Shown in pieces: positions 23,195 to 63,508 of a stretch of 64,000 nucleotides of DNA. Below the pieces are notes generated by a model. That model ran no database searches and was not told where the DNA came from. It saw only the letters and a list, made by a program, of their open reading frames with translations. Each line of letters begins with the position of its first letter. Position 1 is the stretch's first letter. The stretch lies in the sequence record PZ386973.1. One strand, given 5' to 3'. This DNA comes from a phage. A program made the translations under genes and the position numbers.

Positions 23195-24181
23195 TTAAGC
23201 CGGCAGTTTAGCCTGCAGACCAGCCAGAGTCTGAGTGATCGCACCAAGACTTACAGCGATTTGATTAATTACCTGACCATTAGCACCGTTACCCGCAGCG
23301 ATTGCCTCACGTAGGCGACATGCATCTAACTCATCCTGAATACGCGCAGTAGTTACACCAGCGATCGCAGTCTGAAGTTCACAGCAACATTCAGAGATCT
23401 GACGTTCCAGAGAATTCTGGTTAGCACACATCTGAGCCTGAACAGCGGCAAACTGGTTATTAGTTTGTAAAGTCTGCTGGAAAGCGATCTGTGCAGAATC
23501 AAACTTATCTTGTGCACGAGCTATCTGGTTAGCTGCGAAAGATTGATCAATCTGGCGAGAAAGATCGAACTGACCCTGAATAACGTTGCGAGTTTCCTGG
23601 CAGATCTGATTAGACAGATTAGCACCTGTACCATAGATCGTAGTTAGTACAGACTGAGTATCACGGCTCTGGTTTTGGGATGTCTGGCTAAAACCATTGT
23701 TAACTGCGCTTAAAACAGCTCCAGTACCCTGGTTAGCTTCTGTACGAGTAGTGTTAATAGCTGCTAGAATACTAGCGGTATCTTGGTTCTGAAGTACTGC
23801 ATCAACTGCGGTACCATCACCAACTACACCACGTCCACCGAATCCACCGAAACCACCGAATCCGCCTGTTAATAGAGCACCGATTAGGATAGCTCCGAAT
23901 AGTCCCATACCTTCACCACCGAAAGCACCTGCGTTTGCTGGGTAACCACCCAGTAGGCCAGGGAGGCCACTAGTAAATACGTTTACTGGTTCTTGCATTT
24001 TATGTTTTCCATATTTATGACAATGTTCATCATCGTCATCTTCTTCATCATCGTGTTCACGATGCTTTTCTTCGTAGGCTCTGACCTTCTCCCACTTTTT
24101 CTTATCTGATTCCTCGTGACGGTGCAGTTCTGCTGCAACGCTAGCGACGGTCTCAGGACTCTTAGCTACTTCTTCTGTCAT
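23195..24181 (-). CDS. acidic, Gly-zipper membrane protein, Q/N/S/T-rich
   Basis: ATG at 24181 after AGGAGG; DDEEDDDDEH stretch; GLFGAILIGALLTGGFGGFGGFGG segment. Confidence 0.5.
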   Translation of the reverse strand: MTEEVAKSPETVASVAAELHRHEESDKKKWEKVRAYEEKHREHDDEEDDDDEHCHKYGKHKMQEPVNVFTSGLPGLLGGYPANAGAFGGEGMGLFGAILIGALLTGGFGGFGGFGGRGVVGDGTAVDAVLQNQDTASILAAINTTRTEANQGTGAVLSAVNNGFSQTSQNQSRDTQSVLTTIYGTGANLSNQICQETRNVIQGQFDLSRQIDQSFAANQIARAQDKFDSAQIAFQQTLQTNNQFAAVQAQMCANQNSLERQISECCCELQTAIAGVTTARIQDELDACRLREAIAAGNGANGQVINQIAVSLGAITQTLAGLQAKLPA

Positions 24182-39270: not shown

Positions 39271-39927
39271 TTGGAAAAGTTCTTACAATTATTAACGGTA
39301 CTGCTCCAAGAAGCGAAAGATCCAGCATCGCTTCTTAAACGTCTGCTAACTATCTTAGTTGCTGTCATTATTTTCTTATTTGTTAGTAATACTAGCGAGG
39401 TGATGTCATTCTTAAAGACTTTCTCCACGTCTGCGGTTCTACAGGATGTTCAAACTCAAAGGATAGATAACTTTCCTAATGTAGCTAGAGAAAAGAGCAT
39501 GGTACTTTTTTCTCAAACGGGTGCGGATGCTGTTTTTGTCGTCAAGTATAAACCAGATGCTATTAATGATTATTCTAACATTATTGCATGGGAAAGCAAT
39601 GCGCAATTAGATAGGGCTGACTTGGCCGATAAAGCGGTAAATAAAACGTCTGAGCTATATAGACGTCACTTGGAGGGCTTTAACTACGCATCGGATTTAA
39701 GTGTAAAAGTAAATAAATACATGGGGTTAAATATACCTGCGTTTAAGAACGTTACTTTTAATTACATATACACTTGTCCGTATTTCAATCTAAACAATAT
39801 CTATGCTGGATATATTGGTATTGCTTGGAAAGATAACCCTGTAGATGCAGCCGATTCTGAGAAATTTAAGGAATATTTAACAAAGCTCTGTTCACCACAA
39901 CAGAGATCTTTAGGTAGATCAATATGA
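39271..39927 (+). CDS. holin-like membrane protein
   Basis: TTG start after GAGGAGG; 218 aa with a TM segment; directly precedes the endolysin. Confidence 0.55.
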   Translation: MEKFLQLLTVLLQEAKDPASLLKRLLTILVAVIIFLFVSNTSEVMSFLKTFSTSAVLQDVQTQRIDNFPNVAREKSMVLFSQTGADAVFVVKYKPDAINDYSNIIAWESNAQLDRADLADKAVNKTSELYRRHLEGFNYASDLSVKVNKYMGLNIPAFKNVTFNYIYTCPYFNLNNIYAGYIGIAWKDNPVDAADSEKFKEYLTKLCSPQQRSLGRSI

Positions 39928-40337
39928 GTTTTAAATTTGGTAAAAATAGCGAAAAACAATTAGCTACCGTTAAGCCAGAGCTACAAAAAGTAGCTCGTAG
40001 AGCTTTAGAATTATCTCCATATGATTTCACGATCGTACAGGGTATTCGTACAGTAGCACAAAGTGCCCAGAATATTGCTAATGGTACTTCATTTTTAAAA
40101 GATCCTAGTAAAAGCAAGCATATTACTGGGGATGCCCTTGATTTTGCTCCATACATTAATGGCAAAATTGATTGGAATGATTTAGAAGCATTTTGGGCAG
40201 TTAAAAAGGCTTTTGAACAAGCTGGTAAAGAACTGGGCATTAAACTTCGCTTTGGTGCTGATTGGAATGCTTCGGGGGATTATCACGATGAAATAAAACG
40301 TGGTACCTATGATGGCGGTCATGTCGAACTAGTTTAA
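39924..40337 (+). CDS. endolysin (L-alanyl-D-glutamate peptidase-like)
   Basis: 137 aa; size and position match the T5-type endolysin as recalled; HITGDALD and GGHVE suggest metallopeptidase ligands. Confidence 0.6.
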   Translation: MSFKFGKNSEKQLATVKPELQKVARRALELSPYDFTIVQGIRTVAQSAQNIANGTSFLKDPSKSKHITGDALDFAPYINGKIDWNDLEAFWAVKKAFEQAGKELGIKLRFGADWNASGDYHDEIKRGTYDGGHVELV

Positions 40338-43117: not shown

Positions 43118-43707
43118 TGAAGGTTAAATTCTGGTCAGACTTGCACTTAGACCACCCTGGAGCACTACGTTTCCGTCCGTGGTTTAAGAACATGAAAGAG
43201 CACGATGAGTATATTCTAGATACTTTATCCAAGCATATTGGTAAACGAACAAAACTTATTTTGCTAGGAGATATTGCAGTAGGTCGTGAAGGTCTGGCCA
43301 AATTAAAGTCGGTTATCCACAATGTCCCTAATCAACTCATTATGGGTAATCATGATGCGGAGCGTCAAGGACTGAGTATCAGGGACTTAGCGGAAGTTTA
43401 TGACGATATTCAAGCTCTAGGCAAACAGACTGGAGGTGGCAAAAAGTTTTGGCTATCTCACTGCCCTTTGCACCCTAATGAACTTCGTGGCAAACTAAAT
43501 ATTCACGGACATGTACATACTACTTCTTTACGTGATCCACGTTATATTAATGTCTCATTTGAAATGAGTAGAACTCCAATTCCACTAGAGGATATTGTGT
43601 CTGGTAAGTTTACTAGTTACGATAGAGTGGTTAATTGTACTACCGGCGAGGTATTACAAATAGGAGAAGACGTAGCTGCTGTATTGCGTGGCGATATAAA
43701 TGTCTAA
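43114..43707 (+). CDS. calcineurin-like metallophosphoesterase
   Basis: SDLHLDHP, LLGDIAVG, GNHD and HGHVH motifs. Confidence 0.6.
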   Translation: MMKVKFWSDLHLDHPGALRFRPWFKNMKEHDEYILDTLSKHIGKRTKLILLGDIAVGREGLAKLKSVIHNVPNQLIMGNHDAERQGLSIRDLAEVYDDIQALGKQTGGGKKFWLSHCPLHPNELRGKLNIHGHVHTTSLRDPRYINVSFEMSRTPIPLEDIVSGKFTSYDRVVNCTTGEVLQIGEDVAAVLRGDINV

Positions 43708-43815
43708 GTATATAGCTGAGGTTATTATTAAACGAATCATACAGGCGATAGCAATACTTATAATCATTTGTATTGCTATTGGCACAGGATTAGGCATTTT
43801 AATTGAAAGTTTTAT

Positions 43816-43844
43816 TTGCTAAAATGCTTAAGTTTCTGTATAAT
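43816..43844 (+). promoter_or_regulatory. early promoter module
   Basis: TTGCTA-N17-TATAAT. Confidence 0.55.
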
Positions 43845-44659: not shown

Positions 44660-44941
44660 ATGTTAATTGAAATTCTCATTGGGTTGCTAGTGCTTATGAC
44701 ACTAGTAGCGATTGGTGGGGTTATTGGTATTGTAAGCATGCGAAAAAATATAGAGAGTATGCTTACTACTAATAGTGGACTTCACTGCCGATTAATAGAA
44801 CAAGAACAAGATATTGAACTAGCACAGAGACGCTCAGATATTCTAAAAGAAAAACTAAACAATATTGAAGCAATAGTTGGGAATAATAAATTACCTGCTA
44901 AAGTAATGCGTACACAGATAATCACGGAGATTAAAAAATGA
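44660..44941 (+). CDS. membrane protein
   Basis: Track ORF with N-terminal TM helix. Confidence 0.45.
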   Translation: MLIEILIGLLVLMTLVAIGGVIGIVSMRKNIESMLTTNSGLHCRLIEQEQDIELAQRRSDILKEKLNNIEAIVGNNKLPAKVMRTQIITEIKK

Positions 44942-45183
44942 TGATGTTTATTCTAGCGTTTTATCTAATTGTGGTTGGTGTACTGGTTACTAAGTATCAC
45001 ACATGGGCACCAAAGAATGTAGGTAAGGTAGCACTGTTTGTTATCCCAGTTCCGCTTATTATCTTTTCTATGTTACTGGTGATGTTAATTGGTAAAGTAA
45101 CAAAAACTGATATTAAACGTATTGCTGATGAATTGCAACAGTCTTGTGATATGGTAGAGGATATTATTAAAGATGAAGCTTAA
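44938..45183 (+). CDS. membrane protein
   Basis: Track ORF with two TM helices. Confidence 0.45.
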   Translation: MMMFILAFYLIVVGVLVTKYHTWAPKNVGKVALFVIPVPLIIFSMLLVMLIGKVTKTDIKRIADELQQSCDMVEDIIKDEA

Positions 45184-45499
45184 TTTTAATGAATTAAATA
45201 CCTTACATGAGATATTACAATTTGTGAATAATAATATTAGTATTCCAGATGATACTCTAGAAGTTCTCATGTTAATCGAGAAAAAGGTAGGAATTGAAAT
45301 TGAGGACTCTTGGAAACCACTTTCTGTATTAACACCTCTTAATATGAAAGTGATTGTTAAAAATATTGATACTGGTGAAGAGTGTGAAATGATTCGTAAA
45401 GAACTAGCTAATAGCTATTCACCAAAGTCTGTAGTAATGTACCATGATGATACCGCTAAGACTCTACAGACAGCTAATTACGTATGGCGTCTTCCATGA
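45173..45499 (+). CDS. hypothetical protein
   Basis: Track ORF. Confidence 0.45.
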   Translation: MKLNFNELNTLHEILQFVNNNISIPDDTLEVLMLIEKKVGIEIEDSWKPLSVLTPLNMKVIVKNIDTGEECEMIRKELANSYSPKSVVMYHDDTAKTLQTANYVWRLP

Positions 45500-45598
45500 T
45501 TGATTTAGTACCAATTACTGCGGGGCTAATAGCACTATTAGTGCTTGCAGTTTTTATTATTGTGGAGCAGGCCAAAGTAATAAGGAGACTTAAAAACA

Positions 45599-45799
45599 AT
45601 GATAAAACGTCTTGTTTATCAAGCACCAAAGATTGTAACTGAGTATTTTGTATTACTGCCTCAGATTGTATTTCTAACAGCATTATTTAATATACTTTTC
45701 CGACATCTAGGAGTAACAGAAAACGTATTTTACACTTCTGAATTACTTCCTTTTATGTACGAAGGCATTATCACGGCGTTTAATGGGGTTCGTAAATGA
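45599..45799 (+). CDS. hypothetical small membrane protein
   Basis: Track ORF. Confidence 0.4.
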   Translation: MIKRLVYQAPKIVTEYFVLLPQIVFLTALFNILFRHLGVTENVFYTSELLPFMYEGIITAFNGVRK

Positions 45800-47067: not shown

Positions 47068-47353
47068 CTATATTGTATGGTCAAATCCATTAGCCGCACT
47101 TAGTAATAAACTATTTAAAACAGAATGGGGTAAAAACGAAATAGACTTAAGTAGTCGTCCAATACCAAACAAGCACCCATTAGTCCCTGAGCTATATAGG
47201 GTGGTTATAAATGACACAGAGTATTTGGTCGATAAATTTGATAGAAAACGTTTACTAGAGGGTATCTATGATAATTCTACATCAATGGATGAATTAATAG
47301 AGCATGCCCAAATATATGATAAAAGCTGGATGTTAATATGGAGATCATACTAA
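47060..47353 (+). CDS. hypothetical protein
   Basis: Track ORF. Confidence 0.45.
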   Translation: MSSYIVWSNPLAALSNKLFKTEWGKNEIDLSSRPIPNKHPLVPELYRVVINDTEYLVDKFDRKRLLEGIYDNSTSMDELIEHAQIYDKSWMLIWRSY

Positions 47354-47571
47354 TTATTTTAGGAGTTATGCTATTTATTGTAGCATTTGTATATTTTGCT
47401 ATTATGAGTAGAGCCAGAGAGTTAGAAAAAGATCTAACAAAATTACGAGGTGAGTTGGCAGCCCTTAAATTACAGCGTGAGGCTTTAAAGTTGTTTGTGG
47501 TTCAAGGTAGTGTAGAACATACACCAGAAGACTTCATTGCGTGTCTCAAACGTTATATGGGAATTAAATAA
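47338..47571 (+). CDS. membrane-anchored small protein
   Basis: Track ORF. Confidence 0.4.
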   Translation: MEIILIILGVMLFIVAFVYFAIMSRARELEKDLTKLRGELAALKLQREALKLFVVQGSVEHTPEDFIACLKRYMGIK

Positions 47572-47756
47572 TGGAAACACTTTTTCTTTTAATGCTCGTA
47601 GGTTCGTTAGTAGTTATATTAGCACTCCTATTAATCTGTAATATTCTTAATAATAAGAATTTAGGACTAAAGTGTGAAAACCAAATCCTCAACCGTGAAC
47701 TTAAACAATATAATCTAGCAGCACATAAGCTGCTAGACAAACTGGAGAATAAGTAA
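47571..47756 (+). CDS. membrane-anchored small protein
   Basis: Track ORF. Confidence 0.4.
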   Translation: METLFLLMLVGSLVVILALLLICNILNNKNLGLKCENQILNRELKQYNLAAHKLLDKLENK

Positions 47757-51291: not shown

Positions 51292-51514
51292 AATAACGCT
51301 CCGTTATTAAAAATCCCCATATATTCCCGGCCAAATTTTACTAGTAACATAAGTTACTATCCCGGCAACAATTACGCTATAAACTATTAATAAGGTAAAC
51401 ATTAAACCAGACATAATAACTCCTAGTAAATATATTTTTGCCAATAGTGGCGAACGTTATCGCCACCAGCGGAATCATTAGCTGCCTCAGCATTACCAAC
51501 GAAAATATATAATC

Positions 51515-51874
51515 TCATTGTGCCACCTTTCGGAATGCTGTTTCAATACTATCCGCAGTGGATTGAATATATGCGCCTTTCATTATCAGGCGCTCAGTGC
51601 ACACCTTACGGAAGATATTAATAAAATCATCTTCATTTTCTGCGATTAATGCCTCCCCCATGACCTGAATATCACAAGATGCGAAAGTCAAAAATTGAAA
51701 CGCTAGTTCACGGGCAACGACCGCATTGATTTTATAATGCGCCTTGCCCTCATAAATATTAATAACGCCCTTGTAAGCCGGGGAAAGCTGATTTAAGTAG
51801 TTTGCTAACACTGCCGGACGGCAATTAGTAACAAAGCGATTGCCTTCATAAATTATCATTTGCATAGCTCCCAA
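51515..51874 (-). CDS. hypothetical protein
   Basis: Track ORF. Confidence 0.45.
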   Translation of the reverse strand: MGAMQMIIYEGNRFVTNCRPAVLANYLNQLSPAYKGVINIYEGKAHYKINAVVARELAFQFLTFASCDIQVMGEALIAENEDDFINIFRKVCTERLIMKGAYIQSTADSIETAFRKVAQ

Positions 51875-52101
51875 ATAGTTCCGCCGATAATCATTAGCTG
51901 ACTAATGATTATCAGAATAAAACCGATTGAAGGCAGGACGCCCCAATATTGGAACGCCCTTTTAATTTGTTGAATCATTTGTTAGCCTCCCAATTAGATA
52001 GCCAGATAATAACATAAAGATCCCCAGTAAAAGGGGATCATTTTTAAATAAGGTGGCGGTAAAACCGCCAACCATTGCAAGGGTAATAATAATAACGCTT
52101 T

Positions 52102-52314
52102 TCATAGTACCCCACGAAAGGCCGCGTAAAAGGTGGCAAAGTGTTTAACCGTTTCAGCGATCACGTTGCCGCGCTTATCAAATTTCTTTTCGGTAACACG
52201 AAAGGCATTTTTGTTACGTGCTACATATTCGATTTTACAATCAGGACGCTCAAACGTGTTTACATCCACCAGCTTAAAGCCTTTCGAACGTGCAAGAGAA
52301 ACGTTGCGAATCAT
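52102..52314 (-). CDS. hypothetical basic protein
   Basis: Track ORF. Confidence 0.4.
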   Translation of the reverse strand: MIRNVSLARSKGFKLVDVNTFERPDCKIEYVARNKNAFRVTEKKFDKRGNVIAETVKHFATFYAAFRGVL

Positions 52315-52317
52315 TTT

Positions 52318-52470
52318 TTATTCTCCTTTACTAGTCATGCAGCCCAGCAGATAAGAAAATGCAGCGATACCCGCGCCAATAATAACCGCGTGGACACCGA
52401 AAGCTATTGCAAAAAGGGATAAAATAGCGCCCAAGATACCTGCTAGAATAGCTCGAAAAATAACCATTTT
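52318..52470 (-). CDS. small hydrophobic membrane peptide
   Basis: 50 codons, two hydrophobic segments; one of several sub-threshold TM mini-ORFs between 51303 and 52470. Confidence 0.35.
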   Translation of the reverse strand, partial: KMVIFRAILAGILGAILSLFAIAFGVHAVIIGAGIAAFSYLLGCMTSKGE

Positions 52471-52513
52471 CATTCTCCTAGTTAGTGGGGCGAAAGTAAC
52501 GCCCCATTATTAA

Positions 52514-56846: not shown

Positions 56847-57044
56847 ATGATTTTCTTTCCTACTGAGTCATTAATTTTAGGCTTGTTTATTATGGCGGCC
56901 TCGTTATTACTCGCTTATTTTCAAAATGATTTAGATTCATATTATTTTAAACGTAAATCTAAGTTAGCAAAGCGTTTAGGTCTGATTTGTTTTATTGCCG
57001 CCGTTGCTTGTGGTGTTAGTTCTAGCCTTATGCCTTTAAATTAA
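56847..57044 (+). CDS. small membrane protein
   Basis: Track ORF with hydrophobic helices. Confidence 0.3.
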   Translation: MIFFPTESLILGLFIMAASLLLAYFQNDLDSYYFKRKSKLAKRLGLICFIAAVACGVSSSLMPLN

Positions 57045-57118
57045 TGTTGCAAATTATAACGCCTATTATTCAAGGCGTTATATTTGGCAATATTGCCGTT
57101 ATTAACTTAATCCCTTTA

Positions 57119-58798
57119 ATGGAGTTTATTACTATGATTATTTCCGCAGAAAAACAAACCGTTATCCTGAAAATGGCCGCTGACTTTAATTTCTATGGTA
57201 AACGTCTGCGCGCCACTAAACTGGAGGTCTGCGACGATATATCAAAAGCGGTCTACGATACAACAAAACACTCGACCGCTATCTGCGACTGGCTGGAAGC
57301 AAATAAACCAGTTAAACCGAAAGCGGCGAAAGTAGCAAAAGCCATTAAAAACGATGAGCGTCCAGAAGCGGCGGGGATTGTTTCTAGCACGGTTGAACAG
57401 TGGGAAGTAAAACAAGGCAAACGCTTTATTATTACGTCGATTCAGAATAATACTTTCCCGCATAAAAACTTTTTAGCCTCATTGGAAAAATTCGCTGAAT
57501 ATATCGGTGCTGATTTGCTTGTTTCTAAGTATATTTATAATAAAAACGGCTTCCAAAATGGCGAGGGTGCGGATGGAATCAAATATGATTCCGCGTTCGA
57601 TAAATATATTTGCAGCAAAAACGTGTTTTTAAATAACCGCCGTTTTGCTTTCATGGCTGAAATTAATGTTTTGCCAACAGCAGACTATCCGCTTTCTGGA
57701 TTCGCTGAAACTGCAACGGCGCTTAATCTGGAAGGTCTGGCAATCGGTCATGCTAAAATCACCGCTGAAAGCGTGCCAGCTCTCAAAGGTGAAGTAGTAC
57801 GCCGCATGTATTCAACCGGAACGGCAACGCTCAAAAACTACATTCAGCAGAAAGCAGGGCAAAAAGCGGAAGCGCTTCATAACTTTGGTGCGCTGATTGT
57901 CGAGTTCGACGAGGACGGGGAGTTTTTTGTTCGCCAGCTTGAAACTATGGATGAAAGCGGGGTGTTTTATGATCTGAATGTTTGCGCTACTCCCGCCGGA
58001 TGCTATGAAACAACGGGGCATGTTTTAGGCTTGCAATATGGTGACATACACGCCGAAAAATTGGATGATGATTGTGCCGTTGCGTCATGGGCTGGCGAAA
58101 ATAGCTTGCTTGATATTCTTAAACCAAAATATCAGTTTGTGCATGATGTGCATGATTTTACATCGCGCAACCATCACAACCGCGCTTCGGGTGTATTCCT
58201 AGCAAAACAATATGCCGCCGGACGTGATAAAGTTCTGGATGATCTTATCGATACGGGGCGCGTGCTGGAATCGATGGAACGAGATTTTAGCCAAACAATC
58301 ATTGTTGAATCTAATCACGATCTGGCGCTATCCCGCTGGCTTGATGATCGTAATGCTAACATTAAAGACGATCCAGCAAACGCGGAACTATATCACCGCC
58401 TGAATGCCGAGATTTATGGAGCTATTGCAGAAAAAGACGATACTTTCAACGTGCTAGATTATGCATTGCGCAAGGTTGCAGGTTGTGAGTTTAACGCCAT
58501 TTTCCTAACAACTGACCAATCATTTAAAATTGCAGGCATCGAGTGTGGCGTACACGGTCACAACGGCATTAACGGCAGCCGTGGCAATCCTAAACAATTT
58601 AAGAAATTGGGCAAATTGAACACCGGACACACTCACACCGCCAGCATTTACGGCGGGGTATATACCGCTGGCGTTGCTGGTAGTCTCGATATGGGTTACA
58701 ACGTTGGCGCGTCAAGCTGGACGCAAACGCATTTAATTACCTATGCAAACGGGCAGCGCACTTTGATCGATTTTAAGAATGGTAAATTCTTTGCGTAA
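57119..58798 (+). CDS. A1: A1-like pre-early protein with metallophosphoesterase domain
   Basis: GDIHA, GHNG and GHTHT metallophosphatase motifs; about 555 aa from the internal ATG; matches T5 A1 as recalled. Confidence 0.6.
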   Translation: MEFITMIISAEKQTVILKMAADFNFYGKRLRATKLEVCDDISKAVYDTTKHSTAICDWLEANKPVKPKAAKVAKAIKNDERPEAAGIVSSTVEQWEVKQGKRFIITSIQNNTFPHKNFLASLEKFAEYIGADLLVSKYIYNKNGFQNGEGADGIKYDSAFDKYICSKNVFLNNRRFAFMAEINVLPTADYPLSGFAETATALNLEGLAIGHAKITAESVPALKGEVVRRMYSTGTATLKNYIQQKAGQKAEALHNFGALIVEFDEDGEFFVRQLETMDESGVFYDLNVCATPAGCYETTGHVLGLQYGDIHAEKLDDDCAVASWAGENSLLDILKPKYQFVHDVHDFTSRNHHNRASGVFLAKQYAAGRDKVLDDLIDTGRVLESMERDFSQTIIVESNHDLALSRWLDDRNANIKDDPANAELYHRLNAEIYGAIAEKDDTFNVLDYALRKVAGCEFNAIFLTTDQSFKIAGIECGVHGHNGINGSRGNPKQFKKLGKLNTGHTHTASIYGGVYTAGVAGSLDMGYNVGASSWTQTHLITYANGQRTLIDFKNGKFFA

Positions 58799-59627: not shown

Positions 59628-60362
59628 ATGAATCAAGTTAAAACGAATATTACCCGTAATTTCCCGCATATTTCCCGCGTTATGATTTGGGATCTGGACG
59701 GCACTATCATTAATTCTTTCCATCGTGTAGCGCCTTGTTTTGATAGCGAGGGCAATTTAGATTTAAATAAGTATAAAAATGAAGCCTGCAAACATCATTT
59801 AATAATGCAGGATTCATTATTGCCATTAGTTGAATATATGCGCCAGTGCATGAATGACGCTAACACGCTAAACATTATTTGCACCGCTCGACTAATGAGC
59901 AAATCAGATTATTATTTCTTGCGTAAACAAGGATTGCGAGGGCGTGGAAATAGTAATATCCGCGTGTTTTCCCGCGATACCCTGCACAAATACTTTAAAG
60001 CTGATAAGGTTAGCGAAATATACCACAGCAAGGACGCAGTATATAAAAGCCATTATTTTGAATTATTTAAACAATTATATCCGAACGCTGATTTTACAAT
60101 GATTGATGATCATAAAGGCGTGTTAGCGGCGGCGGCATCATACGGATTTAAAACGCTAGACGCGCAAGCCGTTAATGATATTCTATCAATCGGTGTTACA
60201 TTGATTGGTGAAACCTTTATTGATGAATCGCTCGACGATGATAATGATTATCAGTTCCTGGCCGACCGCCTGCAATTATGTTGGGAAGGTATGACCGAGG
60301 AAGAACGCGCAGAATATAGTTGCAGCCCGCAACAATATATTGAGAAATTAAAAGTTGCGTAA
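59628..60362 (+). CDS. dmp: HAD-family 5'-deoxyribonucleotidase-like protein
   Basis: MIWDLDGTIINS (DxDGT motif I); 244 aa; matches T5 dmp as recalled. Confidence 0.6.
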   Translation: MNQVKTNITRNFPHISRVMIWDLDGTIINSFHRVAPCFDSEGNLDLNKYKNEACKHHLIMQDSLLPLVEYMRQCMNDANTLNIICTARLMSKSDYYFLRKQGLRGRGNSNIRVFSRDTLHKYFKADKVSEIYHSKDAVYKSHYFELFKQLYPNADFTMIDDHKGVLAAAASYGFKTLDAQAVNDILSIGVTLIGETFIDESLDDDNDYQFLADRLQLCWEGMTEEERAEYSCSPQQYIEKLKVA

Positions 60363-60380
60363 TAATTAAAGTTGAAATAG

Positions 60381-60417
60381 TTTCATCCTGCAATTAAAAT
60401 GGTTGCAGGATGAAACA
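60381..60417. terminator. bidirectional terminator hairpin
   Basis: GTTTCATCCTGCAA...TTGCAGGATGAAAC 14-bp stem between convergent genes. Confidence 0.55.
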
Positions 60418-60527
60418 ATTACCCTGCTAATAGTAACGGGGTGTGGCGGTTAGCAGACTAAGTATTTTCCCCCAACCCACTGGACACACCTCCATGTGTA
60501 ATCTTATGAAATTTGGCAAAAGGTTAA

Positions 60528-60773
60528 TTAGCGCATAGAAGGGTCATCAAACCGATGTTCGGGTCTAAACTCACGAAATCTCTTCCGCGACGCCCGAGAA
60601 CCGTCCGCCCACTCCCGTTCAAACTCCGCACGTTTTTCATCAAACCTCTGCTCCCTTTCCGCAATCTCCCGCGATACTTCCGCAATATATTTGCGATGCT
60701 TGTTAATGGCCGCAGTCATTCCGAAAACTCCCGCGATTATTCCGATAATAAAAGCAATTACAATACTAAACAT
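60528..60773 (-). CDS. small membrane protein
   Basis: Track ORF with N-terminal TM helix. Confidence 0.4.
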   Translation of the reverse strand: MFSIVIAFIIGIIAGVFGMTAAINKHRKYIAEVSREIAEREQRFDEKRAEFEREWADGSRASRKRFREFRPEHRFDDPSMR

Positions 60774-60960
60774 CTAGTTCTCTCTCAATTTGCAGAATAC
60801 GAGTGCTATCACAACGTTGCAGTTTTACTGATTTTTCTATAGCTAATTGTTGTTGTTTTACTCTGGCTTCTAGAGTTTTTAGGCGAACATACTCGGTATA
60901 AGAAACAAGGAAAATTGCCCGGACTAATATTACTATTAGTGTAGCTGCCAATTCCATCAT
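60766..60960 (-). CDS. small membrane protein
   Basis: Track ORF; followed by two more sub-threshold TM mini-ORFs around 60960-61207. Confidence 0.4.
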   Translation of the reverse strand: MMELAATLIVILVRAIFLVSYTEYVRLKTLEARVKQQQLAIEKSVKLQRCDSTRILQIERELDV

Positions 60961-61368
60961 TTACGTTTCTCCGTTAATAACGTTTCAATTCTAGCCAGGT
61001 GGTTATCTAAAATACATTGCCCAATAATCACAATCCCTAGTAGTGCAATAATTACCCATTCCATTAAATCCACCCCGCCATAGCTGCTAACCAAAAACCT
61101 ACGAAAATAAAGAATAGGATAGTCCCAAGTCCAAAACTATTAATCCAGCTATCATACACCTCTCCGCGTCTGCTCTTTCTTTTGTTTGACATATCTTTCA
61201 TGCTCCTATAAGTGTGGTATTTAAAATAGTCTATAATTTGTACACAACCAACCGTGCTTATAGACTCCTAGAAGGACTTCTACTTTTCCTACCTAGTGGT
61301 TTCTGCCAGTACACCATCCAAGAAATAAAAAATTTAGTTTACTTGGATGTCTTTTTGTTTTATACTAA

Positions 61369-61635
61369 TTACAAGTAATTAGATTGTTCTAGTTTAAATT
61401 TACAGTCACCATATTTAAGGTCAAACTGACTGAGATCCCACCACCCAAACTTAGTACGGAGCTGTACTACTGGAAAGCGATCTCCCTTAATACGAACTTT
61501 TTGAACCTTGAGGCCGTAATGTTCTTCTCCCGCACCCCCAAAAGATTTTACAAATCCCGTACAAAATGGTTTAGGAGCAGGTGCACAACCAGATAACATA
61601 ACTGCGGCAACTAGTGCAATCACAAACTTTTTCAT
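61369..61635 (-). CDS. llp: small lipoprotein, Llp-like (candidate receptor-blocking protein)
   Basis: Lipobox MKKFVIALVAAVMLSGC; divergent from and adjacent to the receptor-binding-like gene. Confidence 0.55.
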   Translation of the reverse strand: MKKFVIALVAAVMLSGCAPAPKPFCTGFVKSFGGAGEEHYGLKVQKVRIKGDRFPVVQLRTKFGWWDLSQFDLKYGDCKFKLEQSNYL

Positions 61636-61720
61636 ATTTATCTCTCCATTTCTAATTTATGAATCTATTATAGCAAAATAGAGAGATAAAAGCAAATACA
61701 TTTTTATAATAGGAGATTAT

Positions 61721-63508
61721 ATGGGTTTTTTCGCTGGAAAATATAGTGATGGTAAAACTGTATTATCACTAAACAAAGTGAATGGTGGGGATATTAATGC
61801 CCACAAAACTCCTAATGCCAATACTATATTTCACTCTGATATGCCATTTGTTCTAGTTGAGAGTACTTATGAAAGTGCACTTTCTAATGCTGGAAATGGC
61901 TTTTTTGTATGTCAGATGCCTTCTGTGATAGCTAACCTAAAAAGTAATGATCCTGGTAGGGTTATACTAACCGCTGTTGAGATAAATGGTACACATAGAG
62001 CTTTTCTTAACGGTACTCAATCCCAGGTTGGGCAATTTCTTGCATTTTTTGAAGATCCCCCTATTGGTAGGGCTGGTGCTGAACTAGGCCTTACGTCAGC
62101 TTTTGCATCTGGTAATAGTTTGGCACATGGTACTTACACTTATAACTCCAGTCTAGGCCATGAAGAGTCAATAGCTAGACAAGGTACTGGTGGTACTATA
62201 TCACAGGCTTCTGGATTTAACTTATACAGACCTGGAGGGGCATATGCCGGTGAAGCTATCGGTAGAGCATGGACTTTAGCAGGATTTCCAGCTGGAGCAT
62301 CTAAAGTATCGATAAATAGTGGTAATGTTGACTTCTGGCACCCTAATTGGCAAGCTCCTATAGGGGCTGGGAAAAGGGGTCATAATTGGTTTTATGTTTG
62401 TAATTCCAATATACGTGGGTATGCAGGTAAAAAAGGTACTACGCCAAGTAATGTTAGTGTCCTATATAATTCTTCAACCTATCCAAATAAGGTTTATGTA
62501 TGCAGAGGCTCGACATCTAACTTAGCATCACAAGCAGCAAAGAAGATGTATGTGCAGGATAGTTATAATGTTACTCCTACCAAAGTTATTTGGTATGTGC
62601 TGAATCTTAGATACTCTAATGGTAGTATGAGCGTTGCTAGTAATCCCTTTACTGGATCCGATATTCTTATAAGCCCCTCTAATTTTACTATAAAAGGTGT
62701 TAGTCTTCCAAATACTAGTTACAAATTCATTAATCAGAATGCTTTTGGTAACTTATCGTCTAGACCTGATATGGAGTACATTGGTAATAACGTTGCTTAT
62801 ACCGGAGTCTTTGGAGACACTACAGCAAGATGCGAGATTGTAGGTTCTAACAAAGGCTCTTTATGGTCTCCGGTAAATTATGGGGGCTCTAAATCTCAGA
62901 TAAGTATTTACAAATTTTCTGCTGGTAAACAATGGTATGTTAATTCCAATAATAATACTATAGGTAATGAGCATGGGGTTGTTTGGGGACCTTCTTCAGT
63001 ACCTTTACGATTACTGCCAAATAACGTAGCTAGTACTTACATAGGTGATGATATAAACCCCTCTTATCCAGGTACAGGAAATAAGTACGTAGGGCTATCT
63101 ACCGTAGGCCTTGGATTACCTAATGCAAACTCTACAGTAATCCTAACTACTGAGGTAGTTGCCGGAAATCTTAATACAGCAGGAGGTCCTATACGAACAT
63201 ATGGTGGCACTGCGTGGCAGGTGCAAGGTAGAAGACAACAAAGTTATACAGGTGGTGATGGGGTATTCCATCAAATATTAACTTTACCACCTAATCAGTT
63301 GGTGCCCTTCCATACTACAGCTTCTTATAGCTATACACAGCAGTGGGCTAGTCGACCTGATGATTTAACATTTACTAGAAGTGGATTTATTTATACTATT
63401 AAAAATTTGGGTAACGGTAACGCTGAGTTAGGTGTAGTTATACATGCAAATGAATCCGCCGCAGTTTTCTTACCGAGATTACGAGTAACAGTTCAACGCC
63501 TTACCTAA
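61721..63508 (+). CDS. receptor-binding tail protein-like (pb5/oad-like)
   Basis: 595 aa, Gly/Asn/Ser/Thr-rich; position next to the lipoprotein gene. Confidence 0.5.

What the first reader, a model, noticed from the sequence alone, without database searches (positions are those of the whole stretch)
60528..61207. String of small membrane proteins on the minus strand
At least four ORFs of 35-81 codons, each with one hydrophobic helix, are packed between the dmp-like gene and the lipoprotein gene. Similar hydrophobic mini-ORFs occur at 51303-52470.
Basis: seen in the sequence. Interest (0 to 1): 0.35.

Follow-up and report, generated by a model that had tools for sequence, protein, structure and literature searches.

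The report
T5-type small membrane-protein gene cassette
The four tiny minus-strand ORFs are real, conserved genes for single-pass inner-membrane proteins, the counterparts of phage T5 genes T5.159 to T5.162; they were already annotated as such in T5, nobody has tested what they do, and here that remains an inference.

Summary
The window is a T5/BF23-like Tequintavirus. Between llp (61369-61635, -) and the terminal-repeat/dmp boundary lie four overlapping minus-strand genes: sm1 61064-61192 (42 aa, not 45), sm2 60957-61064 (35 aa), sm3 60766-60960 (64 aa) and sm4 60528-60773 (81 aa). Each has one strongly hydrophobic helix.

They are orthologues of T5.159-T5.162, which RefSeq already annotates as "contains single transmembrane domain". 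They match PHROGs 8596, 6369, 5851 and 6447.

They are genuine genes:
- Synteny holds in all 34 loci compared, and about 445 phage records carry sm1 and sm4.
- dN/dS is 0.16-0.46 in frame, against 0.64-2.5 with stops in the other frames.
- They are transcribed in the related phage Bas33 only after second-step DNA transfer.

sm1 and sm4 are universal in Markadamsvirinae. sm2 and sm3 come and go. No homologue exists outside T5-like phages, even by a profile search of 1.8 billion proteins.

The predicted soluble parts all face the cytoplasm; sm4 models as one long helix. Function is untested. My best guess, at low confidence, is an early inner-membrane accessory complex for superinfection exclusion, envelope conditioning or holin timing. 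It is independent of receptor type and not needed for Llp action.

The mini-ORFs at 51303-52470 are unrelated pre-early genes. Verdict: ordinary and already known as annotation. Interest is low to moderate.

The parts
61064..61192 (-). sm1: 42-aa tail-anchored membrane protein, orthologue of T5.159. It has a basic cytoplasmic N-terminus with the conserved motif RRGEVYxSWINSFG and a C-terminal TM helix.
   Evidence: ORF and hydropathy. Matches phrog_8596 at 4.9e-32, starting at residue 4. 100% identical to T5.159. Start codon correction. dN/dS 0.16. Present in 448 phage records.
60957..61064 (-). sm2: 35-aa protein, orthologue of T5.160. N-terminal TM helix plus a short amphipathic tail (LDNHLARIE). 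Its start overlaps the sm1 stop (TAATG).
   Evidence: phrog_6369 at 2.8e-26. 97% identical to T5.160. dN/dS 0.19. A 51-aa paralogue sits next to it in Bas33, L011 and L016. Absent in phiR2-01 and TrudiGerster.
60766..60960 (-). sm3: 64-aa protein, orthologue of T5.161. N-terminal TM helix plus a heptad-like C-terminal helix ending in the invariant ERELDV. Its start overlaps the sm2 stop (ATGA). This window's copy carries Arg14 inside the TM where relatives have Trp.
   Evidence: phrog_5851 at 3.2e-29. dN/dS 0.46, the least constrained of the four. Missing in several lineages. Found in 310 records. Weak profile similarity to sm2: hhalign probability 76%.
60528..60773 (-). sm4: 81-aa protein, orthologue of T5.162. 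N-terminal TM helix with a small-residue face (G11, G15, G18, A22), continuing into a long charged E/R/K-rich helix and a basic tail. Its start overlaps the sm3 stop by 8 nt.
   Evidence: phrog_6447 'membrane protein' at 1.2e-45. AlphaFold2 gives a single helix over residues 2-69, pLDDT 75. dN/dS 0.35. Natural variants carry 7-residue in-frame deletions. Found in 444 phage records. The profile search found no homologue outside T5-like phages.
61193..61368 (-). llp-sm1 spacer. It is a decayed remnant of a 104-aa acidic ORF (phrog_16810) that is intact in Epseptimaviruses and there overlaps the sm1 start. It holds the sm1 Shine-Dalgarno sequence, and no strong conserved sigma-70 promoter was found.
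   Evidence: tblastn of the Epseptimavirus ORF against Tequintavirus spacers: L007 8e-12, T5 4e-9, window 0.06. Alignment and promoter scoring. PHROG match.
61369..61635 (-). llp: receptor-blocking (superinfection exclusion) lipoprotein of the BtuB/BF23 type. It is the first gene of the same-strand unit.
   Evidence: 100% identical to BF23 Llp. Pfam LPAM_1 and phrog_1119 Cor. BF23 and DT57C annotation.
60376..60420 (.). Hairpin with an 18-nt inverted repeat between the convergent sm4 and dmp genes. It is probably a bidirectional terminator and lies inside the terminal repeat; the repeat boundary is at about 60486 by homology.
   Evidence: the repeat finder pair I1, 94% complementary. The RNA fold shows a 14-bp stem. 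The repeat boundary is placed from the BF23, DT57C and T5 annotations.

Best explanation
**Shown.**
- The region encodes a translationally coupled cassette of four small bitopic inner-membrane proteins, sm1-sm4, the orthologues of phage T5 genes T5.159-T5.162.
- It lies on the same strand as, and downstream of, the superinfection-exclusion lipoprotein gene llp. These are the last genes of the unique genome before the right terminal repeat.
- The ORFs are real protein-coding genes under purifying selection and conserved in synteny.
- They are transcribed in a close relative only after second-step DNA transfer, so they are not pre-early.
- sm1 and sm4 are universal in Markadamsvirinae. sm2 and sm3 are gained, lost and duplicated.

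**Inferred from sequence.**
- sm1 is tail-anchored, with its N-terminus in the cytoplasm.
- sm2, sm3 and sm4 insert with the N-terminus out and the C-terminus in. All soluble parts would therefore be cytoplasmic helices.
- sm4 is one continuous helix that projects about 45 residues from the membrane.
- Small-residue faces in the TM helices, heptad-like cytoplasmic helices and coupled translation suggest the proteins assemble into a hetero-oligomeric membrane complex.

**Inferred function (about 0.3 confidence).** The complex is an accessory module that acts on the infected cell's inner membrane in the early phase. The most plausible role is a second, receptor-independent layer of superinfection exclusion or envelope conditioning alongside Llp. 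It is not a helper of Llp itself.

The confidence below refers to the identity and anatomy claims, not the function.
For: **Identity and anatomy.**
- ORFs, overlaps and hydropathy.
- T5 RefSeq annotates T5.159-162 (42, 35, 64 and 81 aa) as single-TM proteins between llp and the right terminal repeat. The same genes are annotated in BF23, DT57C and Bas33.
- PHROG matches run from 1e-26 to 1e-45.
- Synteny holds in all 34 loci compared.
- tblastn record counts: sm1 448, sm4 444, sm3 310, sm2 191.

**Coding evidence.**
- dN/dS is 0.16, 0.19, 0.46 and 0.35 in frame with zero stops. The alternative frames give 0.64-2.5 with 2.5-12 stops.
- Bas33 RNA-seq at 20 min shows TPM up to about 460 for the cassette and 0 when second-step transfer is blocked.

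**Structure.**
- AlphaFold2 models sm4 as a single helix over residues 2-69.
- Natural variants carry heptad-sized in-frame deletions.

**Independence from receptor and Llp.**
- T5 (FhuA receptor, unrelated Llp) has sm1 100% and sm2 97% identical to this BtuB-type phage.
- The two llp module types converge only about 45-50 nt upstream of sm1.
- Llp alone gives exclusion (PMC9586334).

**Operon continuity.** In Epseptimaviruses, llp, orf104 and sm1-sm4 form a run with overlapping genes.
Against: - There is no direct translation or protein evidence. No Ribo-seq or mass-spectrometry detection was found.
- Bas33 TPM values are very uneven: sm1 and sm2 are about 1, sm3 about 430, sm4 about 18. This may be a read-assignment artefact for 108-129-nt overlapping features, but it could also mean the genes are not expressed as one unit.
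- Topology rests only on the positive-inside rule.
- The proposed function rests on adjacency to llp and on architecture. With essentially no periplasmic exposure, it is unclear how the proteins could block an incoming phage.
- sm1 and sm4 are core to the subfamily and tightly conserved. That fits a role in the phage's own cycle at least as well as an accessory exclusion role.
- No homology to any known exclusion protein was found.
Confidence: 0.85

Rival explanations
1. **Lysis-timing regulators.** The membrane-anchored cytoplasmic helices bind the cytoplasmic N-terminus or the TM helix of the phage's T-type holin and tune when it triggers. This would be functionally analogous to T4 RIII or RI antiholins, though not homologous to them.
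For: - The window encodes a T4-type holin (PF11031, E = 8e-114, 39271-39927) next to the endolysin.
- In T4 (established knowledge) this holin class is controlled by small dedicated partners.
- None of the T5-like records inspected annotates an antiholin.
- Whether T5 shows lysis inhibition is described as ambiguous (PMC12737510).
- The cassette sits beside the superinfection-exclusion gene, and in T4 exclusion and lysis inhibition are linked.
Against: - The cassette is about 20 kb from the lysis genes and in another transcription unit.
- No match to any holin or antiholin family reaches threshold. The only lysis-family hit is MS2 lysis protein at E = 0.034, which is noise.
- RI acts in the periplasm, whereas these proteins have almost nothing there.
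- I did not test the window for RI or RIII homologues elsewhere.
Confidence: 0.15
2. **Membrane scaffold for a phage DNA transaction.** The proteins would anchor replication, recombination or packaging of the T5 genome to the inner membrane. This would work like Bacillus phage phi29 p16.7 (N-terminal TM, coiled coil and DNA-binding tail) and p1 (membrane-associated through a C-terminal hydrophobic region).
For: - sm4 has an N-terminal TM helix, a long helix and a basic tail (GSRASRKRFREFR). sm1 has a basic N-terminus (MSNKRKSRR) and a C-terminal anchor.
- Both are universal and tightly conserved in the subfamily, as expected of genes used in the phage's own cycle.
- They are made in the early phase, after second-step transfer.
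Against: - No DNA-binding domain or any homology was detected.
- The last 14 residues of sm4, including part of the basic tail, are replaced wherever a homing endonuclease has inserted, so that part is dispensable.
- The comparison with phi29 rests on my recollection of those proteins and was not tested here.
Confidence: 0.12
3. **Host-takeover or anti-defence membrane effectors.** The small bitopic proteins would bind and inhibit a host inner-membrane protein. Candidates are a division or envelope-biogenesis factor of the FtsL, ZapG or LapA type, or a membrane-acting abortive-infection effector.
For: - sm4 gives sub-threshold matches to LapA_dom (8.7e-5, 22.8 bits against a cut-off of 28), ZapG-like and FtsL models.
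- PHROGs files sm4 under 'moron, auxiliary metabolic gene and host takeover'.
- The locus is a hot spot where genes and homing endonucleases come and go.
- Positional analogues with the same architecture but no detectable homology occur in Klebsiella Sugarland-type phages.
Against: - All family matches are below curated cut-offs. They cover only the TM helix plus charged helix, so they probably reflect composition.
- There are no PADLOC-related or other informative hits.
- A core, strongly conserved pair (sm1 and sm4) is atypical for counter-defence genes, which usually vary between close relatives.
Confidence: 0.13
4. **Not genes at all.** The ORFs would be chance open frames in AT-rich DNA whose T-rich codons mimic hydrophobic helices.
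For: - About 11% of small ORFs in the six frames of this window pass the same hydropathy threshold.
- Two of the four have near-zero read counts in the Bas33 RNA-seq table.
- sm1 is left unannotated in many GenBank records.
Against: - In-frame dN/dS is 0.16-0.46 with third-position excess and no stops in 25-32 distinct sequences. Both other frames behave neutrally and are full of stops.
- Start codons, Shine-Dalgarno sequences and start/stop overlaps are conserved.
- Indels are multiples of three.
- The genes are conserved down to about 70% nucleotide identity across two genera.
Confidence: 0.02

Closest known systems
Phage T5 genes T5.159, T5.160, T5.161 and T5.162 (older names ORF150 and ORF151 = T5p157 and T5p158 for the last two); BF23_00172-175; bas33_0187-0191; PHROGs 8596, 6369, 5851 and 6447
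   Same: - Same four genes in the same order, on the same strand as llp, immediately before the right terminal repeat.
- Identity to T5: sm1 100%, sm2 97%, sm3 77%, sm4 88%.
- Same single-TM prediction.
   Different: - The window's sm3 carries Arg instead of Trp in the TM helix.
- BF23's record annotates a 63-aa sm1 from an upstream ATG that is not conserved.
- Some relatives carry an extra 51-aa sm2 paralogue, lack sm2 and/or sm3, or have a homing endonuclease fused onto the end of sm4.
Superinfection-exclusion membrane proteins of other phages (T4 Imm and Sp, P22 SieA, HK97 gp15) and the neighbouring Llp/Cor lipoprotein
   Same: - Small phage-encoded envelope proteins, made before late genes.
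- Here they are physically linked to a proven exclusion gene, llp.
   Different: - No sequence or family relationship.
- Predicted to expose almost nothing to the periplasm.
- Not receptor-specific.
- Llp works without them.
- Exclusion activity is untested.
T4 antiholins RI and RIII, which control the T-type holin
   Same: - The phage has a T-type holin.
- The cassette proteins are of antiholin size, and like RIII their soluble parts are predicted to be cytoplasmic and helical.
   Different: - No homology.
- Membrane-anchored, unlike RIII.
- No periplasmic domain, unlike RI.
- Not located next to the lysis genes.
- Lysis inhibition in T5 is not established.
Bacterial bitopic inner-membrane proteins with a TM helix and a coiled coil (LapA/YciS domain, ZapG/YhcB, FtsL)
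   Same: Same architecture: an N-terminal TM helix followed directly by a long charged helix. sm4 gives weak profile matches to these families.
   Different: - All matches are below the curated thresholds.
- FtsL's coiled coil is periplasmic.
- No conserved family motifs are shared.
Klebsiella Sugarland-type T5-like phages: two ORFs (74 aa, phrog_37669; and 151 aa) between the receptor-binding protein gene and dmp
   Same: Same genomic position and strand, and the same architecture of an N-terminal TM helix plus coiled coil.
   Different: No detectable homology (hhalign probability 11% and 0.7%). There are two genes rather than four, and no llp-type lipoprotein is annotated there.

Membership tests
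T5.159-T5.162 orthologous groups (PHROGs 8596, 6369, 5851, 6447) | Significant full-length sequence match to each family profile | tested here: met
   E-values of 4.9e-32, 2.8e-26, 3.2e-29 and 1.2e-45, each covering the whole profile. tblastn identity to T5 is 100, 97, 77 and 88%.
T5.159-T5.162 orthologous groups | Position: same strand as llp, between llp and the right terminal repeat/dmp, with overlapping starts and stops | tested here: met
   Same order in T5, BF23, DT57C, Bas33 and 30 other loci.
T5.159-T5.162 orthologous groups | One predicted transmembrane helix per protein | tested here: met
   KD19 maxima of 2.17-2.59 in the window; hydrophobic maxima are retained in the orthologues (KD17). 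No dedicated TM predictor was available.
Holins (any class) | Match to a holin family profile | tested here: not met
   No Pfam, PHROG or NCBIfam holin hit for any of the four. The phage's holin is the T-type protein at 39271-39927.
Holins (any class) | Location in the lysis cassette next to the endolysin | tested here: not met
   Holin and endolysin are at 39271-40337, about 20 kb away. BF23 annotates holin, endolysin and both spanins elsewhere.
Spanins (i-spanin with o-spanin lipoprotein) | i-spanin: N-in/C-out TM helix with a periplasmic coiled-coil domain of roughly 100 or more residues, paired with an adjacent or embedded o-spanin lipoprotein | tested here: not met
   - Positive residues follow the TM helices, which predicts the C-terminus in the cytoplasm.
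- The proteins are 35-81 aa.
- The neighbouring lipoprotein is the receptor-blocking Llp.
- Dedicated i- and o-spanins are annotated in BF23 at another locus.
- Topology was not tested experimentally.
Known superinfection-exclusion families (Cor/Llp, Imm, Sp, SieA) | Sequence membership in one of these families | tested here: not met
   Only llp itself matches Cor (phrog_1119). The four small proteins match nothing of this kind.
Known superinfection-exclusion families | Expression protects cells against infection | not testable with these tools
   This needs plating or DNA-entry assays. No report was found in the literature searched.
LapA domain (PF06305), ZapG-like (PF06295), FtsL (NF049847) | Score above the curated family cut-off | tested here: not met
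   sm4 scores 22.8 bits against 28, 18.1 against 33.5, and 18.5 against 50.
T4 antiholins RI and RIII | Sequence homology to RI or RIII | tested here: not met
   No Pfam or PHROG hit of that kind for sm1-sm4. Interaction with the T-type holin was not testable.
Type I toxin-antitoxin small hydrophobic toxins (Hok, Ldr, TisB type) | Toxin family match and an antisense RNA partner | tested here: not met
   No protein family hit. No Rfam family reaches threshold in 60200-61800; the only match is an archaeal snoRNA at E = 0.46.

The most novel reading that the evidence does not exclude
sm1 and sm4, with sm2 and sm3 as exchangeable subunits, form a Markadamsvirinae-specific inner-membrane complex with no relatives anywhere else. 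It would perform a defined, so far unassigned step of T5-type biology.

One possibility is a new class of membrane-anchored cytoplasmic antiholin for the T-type holin. Another is a receptor-independent block to DNA entry that works at the inner membrane through TM-TM contacts with the incoming tape-measure channel.
Probability: 0.2. Interest if true: 0.55.

Novelty: already known. Interest (0 to 1): 0.22.

Why it matters
T5 is a classic model phage, and T5-like phages are widely used in biocontrol. Yet the genes beside its well-studied receptor-binding and receptor-blocking module have never been characterised.

This analysis shows that two of the four small membrane proteins (sm1 and sm4) are universal in the subfamily. 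They are under purifying selection as strong as that on Llp and have no homologue among 1.8 billion representative proteins. They are therefore good candidates for a subfamily-specific membrane function such as exclusion, lysis timing or DNA handling.

It also fixes practical annotation points:
- the true start of sm1;
- the frequent omission of sm1 and sm2 from GenBank records;
- the decayed ORF in the llp-sm1 spacer.

As a discovery it is modest. The ORFs and their single-TM nature have been in the T5 reference annotation for years.

Tried and rejected
- **Protein family searches.** Pfam, NCBIfam, PADLOC and Rfam scans of the four proteins and the region gave nothing above threshold.
- **Large-scale homology searches for sm4 and sm1.** These returned only T5-like phage proteins.
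- **Profile search with an sm4 alignment.** Across 1.84 billion representatives it returned five clusters, all from the same family.
- **Structure.** The AlphaFold2 model of sm4 is a single helix, so I did not run a fold search; it would be meaningless.
- **Literature.** No paper names T5.159-162 or T5p157/158. Papers on BF23, Llp structure, T5 mutagenesis, two-step injection and phiR2-01 say nothing about these genes. No T5 ribosome-profiling study was found. The phiR2-01 proteomics table is not held.
- **'Llp helper' idea rejected.** The cassette is nearly identical in phages with unrelated Llp and receptor, and Llp alone blocks FhuA.
- **Spanin or holin identity rejected.** See the membership tests.
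- **Internal promoter upstream of sm1.** I found no conserved strong sigma-70 match. BF23's record predicts one, noted there as 'absent in T5'.
- **Homology to other small hydrophobic ORFs in the window.** Only sm2 and its 51-aa paralogue are clearly related.
- **Positional analogues in more distant T5-like phages.** Klebsiella phages have two analogues of the same architecture without detectable homology. The Proteus and Vibrio relatives checked have none.
Full report
**What the window is.** Megablast of 60300-61700 finds 266 phage records, all T5-like. The best is Escherichia phage BF23 at 93% identity. Over 12 kb the closest records are only about 90-91% identical. The window is therefore a Tequintavirus related to BF23 and T5, but not a deposited isolate.

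Relative to GenBank orientation the window is reverse-complemented. The gene order is:
- A1 at 57044-58798 (+);
- two small pre-early genes;
- dmp at 59628-60362 (+);
- four small minus-strand ORFs;
- llp at 61369-61635 (-);
- the receptor-binding protein gene at 61721-63508 (+).

By homology to the BF23, DT57C and T5 annotations, the right terminal repeat begins about 42 nt beyond the stop of the last small ORF, near window position 60486. The window continues from the repeat into early genes. From this I infer that the assembly carries a single, collapsed copy of the repeat.

**Checking the observation.**
- 61064-61201, 45 codons from the first ATG;
- 60957-61064, 35 codons;
- 60766-60960, 64 codons;
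- 60528-60773, 81 codons.

Neighbouring genes overlap by 1, 4 and 8 nt (TAATG, ATGA, ATGTTTAG), the usual signature of translational coupling. Each ORF is preceded by a purine-rich stretch.

Each protein has one segment with a 19-residue Kyte-Doolittle mean of 2.17-2.59. In the whole window only 20 of 186 ATG-ORFs of 35-90 codons, counted in all six frames, reach 2.1. Four adjacent ones by chance would be roughly 1.4e-4.

One correction applies to the first gene. Its first ATG is ACG or ATT in some relatives. The second ATG (61192) is invariant and has AGGAG 10 nt upstream. T5.159 and the PHROG profile also begin there. The gene is therefore 42 codons, 61064-61192.

**They are known, annotated genes.** The T5 reference record lists T5.159 (42 aa), T5.160 (35 aa), T5.161 (64 aa) and T5.162 (81 aa). 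They lie between the llp gene (T5.158) and the right terminal repeat.
- The BF23, DT57C and Bas33 records annotate the same genes.
- The four window proteins match PHROGs 8596, 6369, 5851 and 6447 at E = 1e-26 to 1e-45. The first three are 'unknown function'; the last is 'membrane protein'.
- No paper in the searchable library names these genes.
- The BF23 genome paper, the Llp structure paper, the T5 mutagenesis paper, the two-step-injection preprint and the phiR2-01 paper say nothing about them.

**They are real genes.** I collected 34 homologous loci from Tequintavirus and Epseptimavirus phages, including the window.

The cassette always sits between llp and dmp, on llp's strand, with overlapping starts and stops.

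| Gene | Pooled Nei-Gojobori dN/dS |
|---|---|
| sm1 | 0.16 |
| sm2 | 0.19 |
| sm3 | 0.46 |
| sm4 | 0.35 |
| llp | 0.21 |
| dmp | 0.10 |

Variable sites concentrate at third codon positions. In the two alternative frames of the same DNA the ratios are 0.64-2.5, with 2.5-12 stops per sequence. Length variants are in frame. Several sm4 variants lack exactly seven residues, which keeps a helix in register.

Across 50,697 phage records, tblastn finds sm1 in 448, sm4 in 444, sm3 in 310 and sm2 in 191. The last two counts are lower bounds because the queries are short. All hits are in T5-like phages of enterobacteria.

**Expression.** A 2026 study of the Tequintavirus Bas33 (HildyBeyeler, about 92% identical here) provides RNA-seq at 20 min after infection (PMC13250531).

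| Gene | TPM, replicate 1 / replicate 2 |
|---|---|
| llp | 219 / 127 |
| sm1 | 0.8 / 1.0 |
| extra 51-aa ORF | 162 / 137 |
| sm2 | 0.5 / 1.2 |
| sm3 | 462 / 408 |
| sm4 | 22 / 13 |

All are essentially zero when daunorubicin blocks second-step DNA transfer. The region is therefore transcribed and is not pre-early, which fits its position outside the first-step-transfer DNA.

The near-zero values for the 108- and 129-nt genes probably reflect how reads are assigned to tiny overlapping features. That is my inference and remains a caveat. I found no translation-level data.

**Anatomy and variation.**
- **Core and variable genes.** sm1 and sm4 are present in every locus. The middle of the cassette varies:
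  - sm2 plus sm3 is the usual form, as here.
  - A shorter sm2 occurs alone in six loci.
  - sm3 occurs alone in phiR2-01.
  - Neither is present in TrudiGerster.
  - An extra 51-aa sm2 paralogue is present in Bas33, L011 and L016 (it matches the sm2 PHROG at 1e-15).
- **sm2 and sm3.** Their profiles resemble each other weakly (hhalign probability 76%).
- **Homing endonucleases.** These have often inserted just after sm4 and replace its last 14 or so residues.
- **Topology.** sm1 has a basic N-terminus with the conserved motif RRGEVYxSWINSFG and a C-terminal TM helix, so it is tail-anchored. sm2, sm3 and sm4 start directly with the TM helix and have lysines and arginines just after it. By the positive-inside rule the C-termini are then cytoplasmic.
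- **sm4 structure.** AlphaFold2 models sm4 as one helix from residue 2 to 69 with a disordered tail (pLDDT 75). From the sequence, its TM part carries small residues at positions 11, 15, 18 and 22. Its cytoplasmic part is E/R/K-rich, with hydrophobic residues every seven positions (I23, I30, I37, F44, F51).

**Relation to llp.**
- T5 uses FhuA and has an unrelated Llp, yet its sm1 and sm2 are 100% and 97% identical to those of this BtuB-type phage.
- Aligning the upstream regions shows that the T5-type and BF23-type sequences converge only about 45-50 nt before sm1. The cassette therefore lies just outside the exchangeable receptor-binding/receptor-blocking module.
- Llp expressed alone blocks FhuA (PMC9586334).
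- The small proteins are thus neither receptor-specific nor required for Llp action.
- In Epseptimaviruses a 104-aa acidic ORF (phrog_16810) fills the gap between llp and sm1 and overlaps the sm1 start, making a continuous gene run. In Tequintaviruses, including this window (61193-61368), the 'spacer' is a decayed copy of that ORF: tblastn gives 8e-12 for L007, 4e-9 for T5 and 0.06 for the window.
- I found no conserved strong sigma-70 promoter in the spacer. BF23's record predicts one there.
- An 18-nt inverted repeat at 60376-60420, inside the terminal repeat, lies between the convergent sm4 and dmp genes. It is the likely terminator for both.

**Searching for relatives and function.**
- Pfam, NCBIfam, PADLOC and Rfam give nothing above threshold.
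- sm4 has sub-threshold matches to LapA-domain, ZapG-like and FtsL models. These share only the 'TM helix plus charged helix' architecture.
- Word-indexed searches of 5.8 billion proteins with sm4 and sm1 return only T5-like phage proteins.
- A full HMMER profile search of 1.84 billion representatives with an sm4 alignment returns five clusters, all from the same family.
- The canonical lysis genes are elsewhere. A T4-type holin (PF11031, 8e-114) and the endolysin are at 39271-40337. BF23 annotates both spanins at another locus.
- In Klebsiella Sugarland-type relatives the same position holds two ORFs of the same architecture with no detectable homology. The Proteus and Vibrio relatives checked have nothing comparable.

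**What it most likely does.** The shown facts establish a conserved, co-translated set of small inner-membrane proteins made after second-step transfer. Function is inference. I rank the possibilities as follows:
1. An inner-membrane accessory complex for receptor-independent superinfection exclusion or envelope conditioning. Adjacency to llp, early timing and membrane location support it. The lack of periplasmic exposure and the core status of sm1 and sm4 count against it. About 0.3.
2. Regulators of the T-type holin. The holin class normally has small partners, and T5's lysis-inhibition status is called ambiguous in PMC12737510. About 0.15.
3. Host-takeover or anti-defence effectors acting on a host membrane protein. 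About 0.13.
4. A membrane scaffold for phage DNA transactions, by analogy with phi29 p16.7 and p1 as I recall them. About 0.12.

That these are not genes at all is effectively excluded.

**The secondary remark.** The hydrophobic mini-ORFs at 51303-52470 are 52318-52473, 51962-52105, 51856-51978 and 51307-51414, all on the minus strand. They lie in the second pre-early operon of the terminal repeat, the T5.011-T5.017 region. They match other PHROGs (5607, 19184) or none. By inspection some have two hydrophobic segments, as T5.013 is annotated. They show no similarity to the cassette. They resemble it only in being small and hydrophobic.

**Verdict.** The feature is already in the reference annotation of T5 and has no assigned function. 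It is ordinary as a finding. It has modest residual interest because sm1 and sm4 are universal, constrained and orphan.

Noticed in passing
window 61193-61368 (-): The llp-sm1 intergenic 'spacer' is a decayed remnant of a 104-aa acidic ORF (phrog_16810, unknown function). That ORF is intact in Epseptimaviruses and there overlaps the sm1 start. tblastn gives T5 4e-9, L007 8e-12 and the window 0.06.
   Followed up: partly
about 45-50 nt upstream of the sm1 start (window ~61240); alignment of WIN, L001, L026, L007, L017: Upstream sequences of T5-type (FhuA) and BF23-type (BtuB) phages are unrelated up to this point and nearly identical after it. This marks the right-hand recombination boundary of the exchangeable receptor-binding/llp module.
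   Followed up: partly
relatives L012, L016-L019, L022-L025, L027, L033 (immediately 3' of sm4); absent in the window: HNH homing endonuclease genes (157-179 aa) are repeatedly inserted right after sm4 and replace its last 14 or so codons with unrelated sequence. The C-terminal tail of sm4 is therefore dispensable, and the site is an insertion hot spot.
   Followed up: partly
window 60766-60960 (-), codon 14: This phage's sm3 has Arg in the middle of its TM helix (LVRAIF) where most of the relatives compared have Trp. Salmonella phage Kenya-K15 has a 98% identical copy. sm3 is also the least constrained gene (dN/dS 0.46) and is lost in several lineages.
   Followed up: no
window 47338-47571 (+) and 47571-47756 (+); also 44938-45183, 45484-45642, 43700-43822, 24002-24109 (+): There are further small early-region ORFs with an N-terminal TM helix followed by a coiled coil. 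The first pair matches DUF7237/phrog_6021 and phrog_5799, with the two ORFs sharing one base at their junction. Small hydrophobic-helix ORFs recur in this genome, and none is detectably homologous to the cassette.
   Followed up: partly
window 51307-52473 (-) and 56847-57044 (+): These are pre-early hydrophobic mini-ORFs. 52318-52473 matches phrog_5607, 51962-52105 matches phrog_19184 and 56847-57044 matches phrog_4820 'membrane protein' (the T5.005 equivalent). 51856-51978 and 51307-51414 match no PHROG, and I did not check whether they are conserved.
   Followed up: partly
window 61637-61690: A 15-nt inverted repeat (93% complementary, 24 nt apart) lies in the divergent llp / receptor-binding-protein intergenic region. 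Each arm carries a GGAGAGA-type purine-rich stretch (one per strand), probably the Shine-Dalgarno of llp and of the receptor-binding-protein gene. It may couple the regulation of the two genes.
   Followed up: no
window 60376-60420: A strong hairpin (18-nt arms) lies between the convergent dmp and sm4 genes, inside the terminal repeat about 66 nt from its inferred boundary (about 60486). It would therefore also sit at the extreme left end of the packaged genome.
   Followed up: partly
window 39271-39927 (+): The holin is of the T4 'T' type (PF11031, E = 8e-114) and appears to start with TTG. No RI- or RIII-like antiholin is annotated in the T5-like records inspected. One review calls T5's lysis-inhibition status ambiguous.
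   Followed up: partly
Bas33 RNA-seq (PMC13250531 Dataset S1), genes bas33_0187-0192: TPM is very uneven across overlapping genes of one apparent operon: sm1 and sm2 about 1, sm3 about 430, sm4 about 18, llp about 170. This is either a read-assignment artefact for features of about 110-130 nt or evidence of internal processing or promoters.
   Followed up: no
GenBank records of T5-like phages (table): In many deposited genomes sm1 has no annotated feature under the tblastn match ('none'). In BF23 it is annotated with a non-conserved 21-codon N-terminal extension. In several records neighbouring small genes are mislabelled 'tail fiber protein' or 'tail assembly protein'.
   Followed up: no
whole window: The terminal repeat occurs once and is flanked on one side by the right-end unique genes (llp, the receptor-binding protein gene) and on the other by left-end early genes. 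The source assembly therefore appears to be circularly collapsed rather than the true linear genome with two repeats.
   Followed up: no
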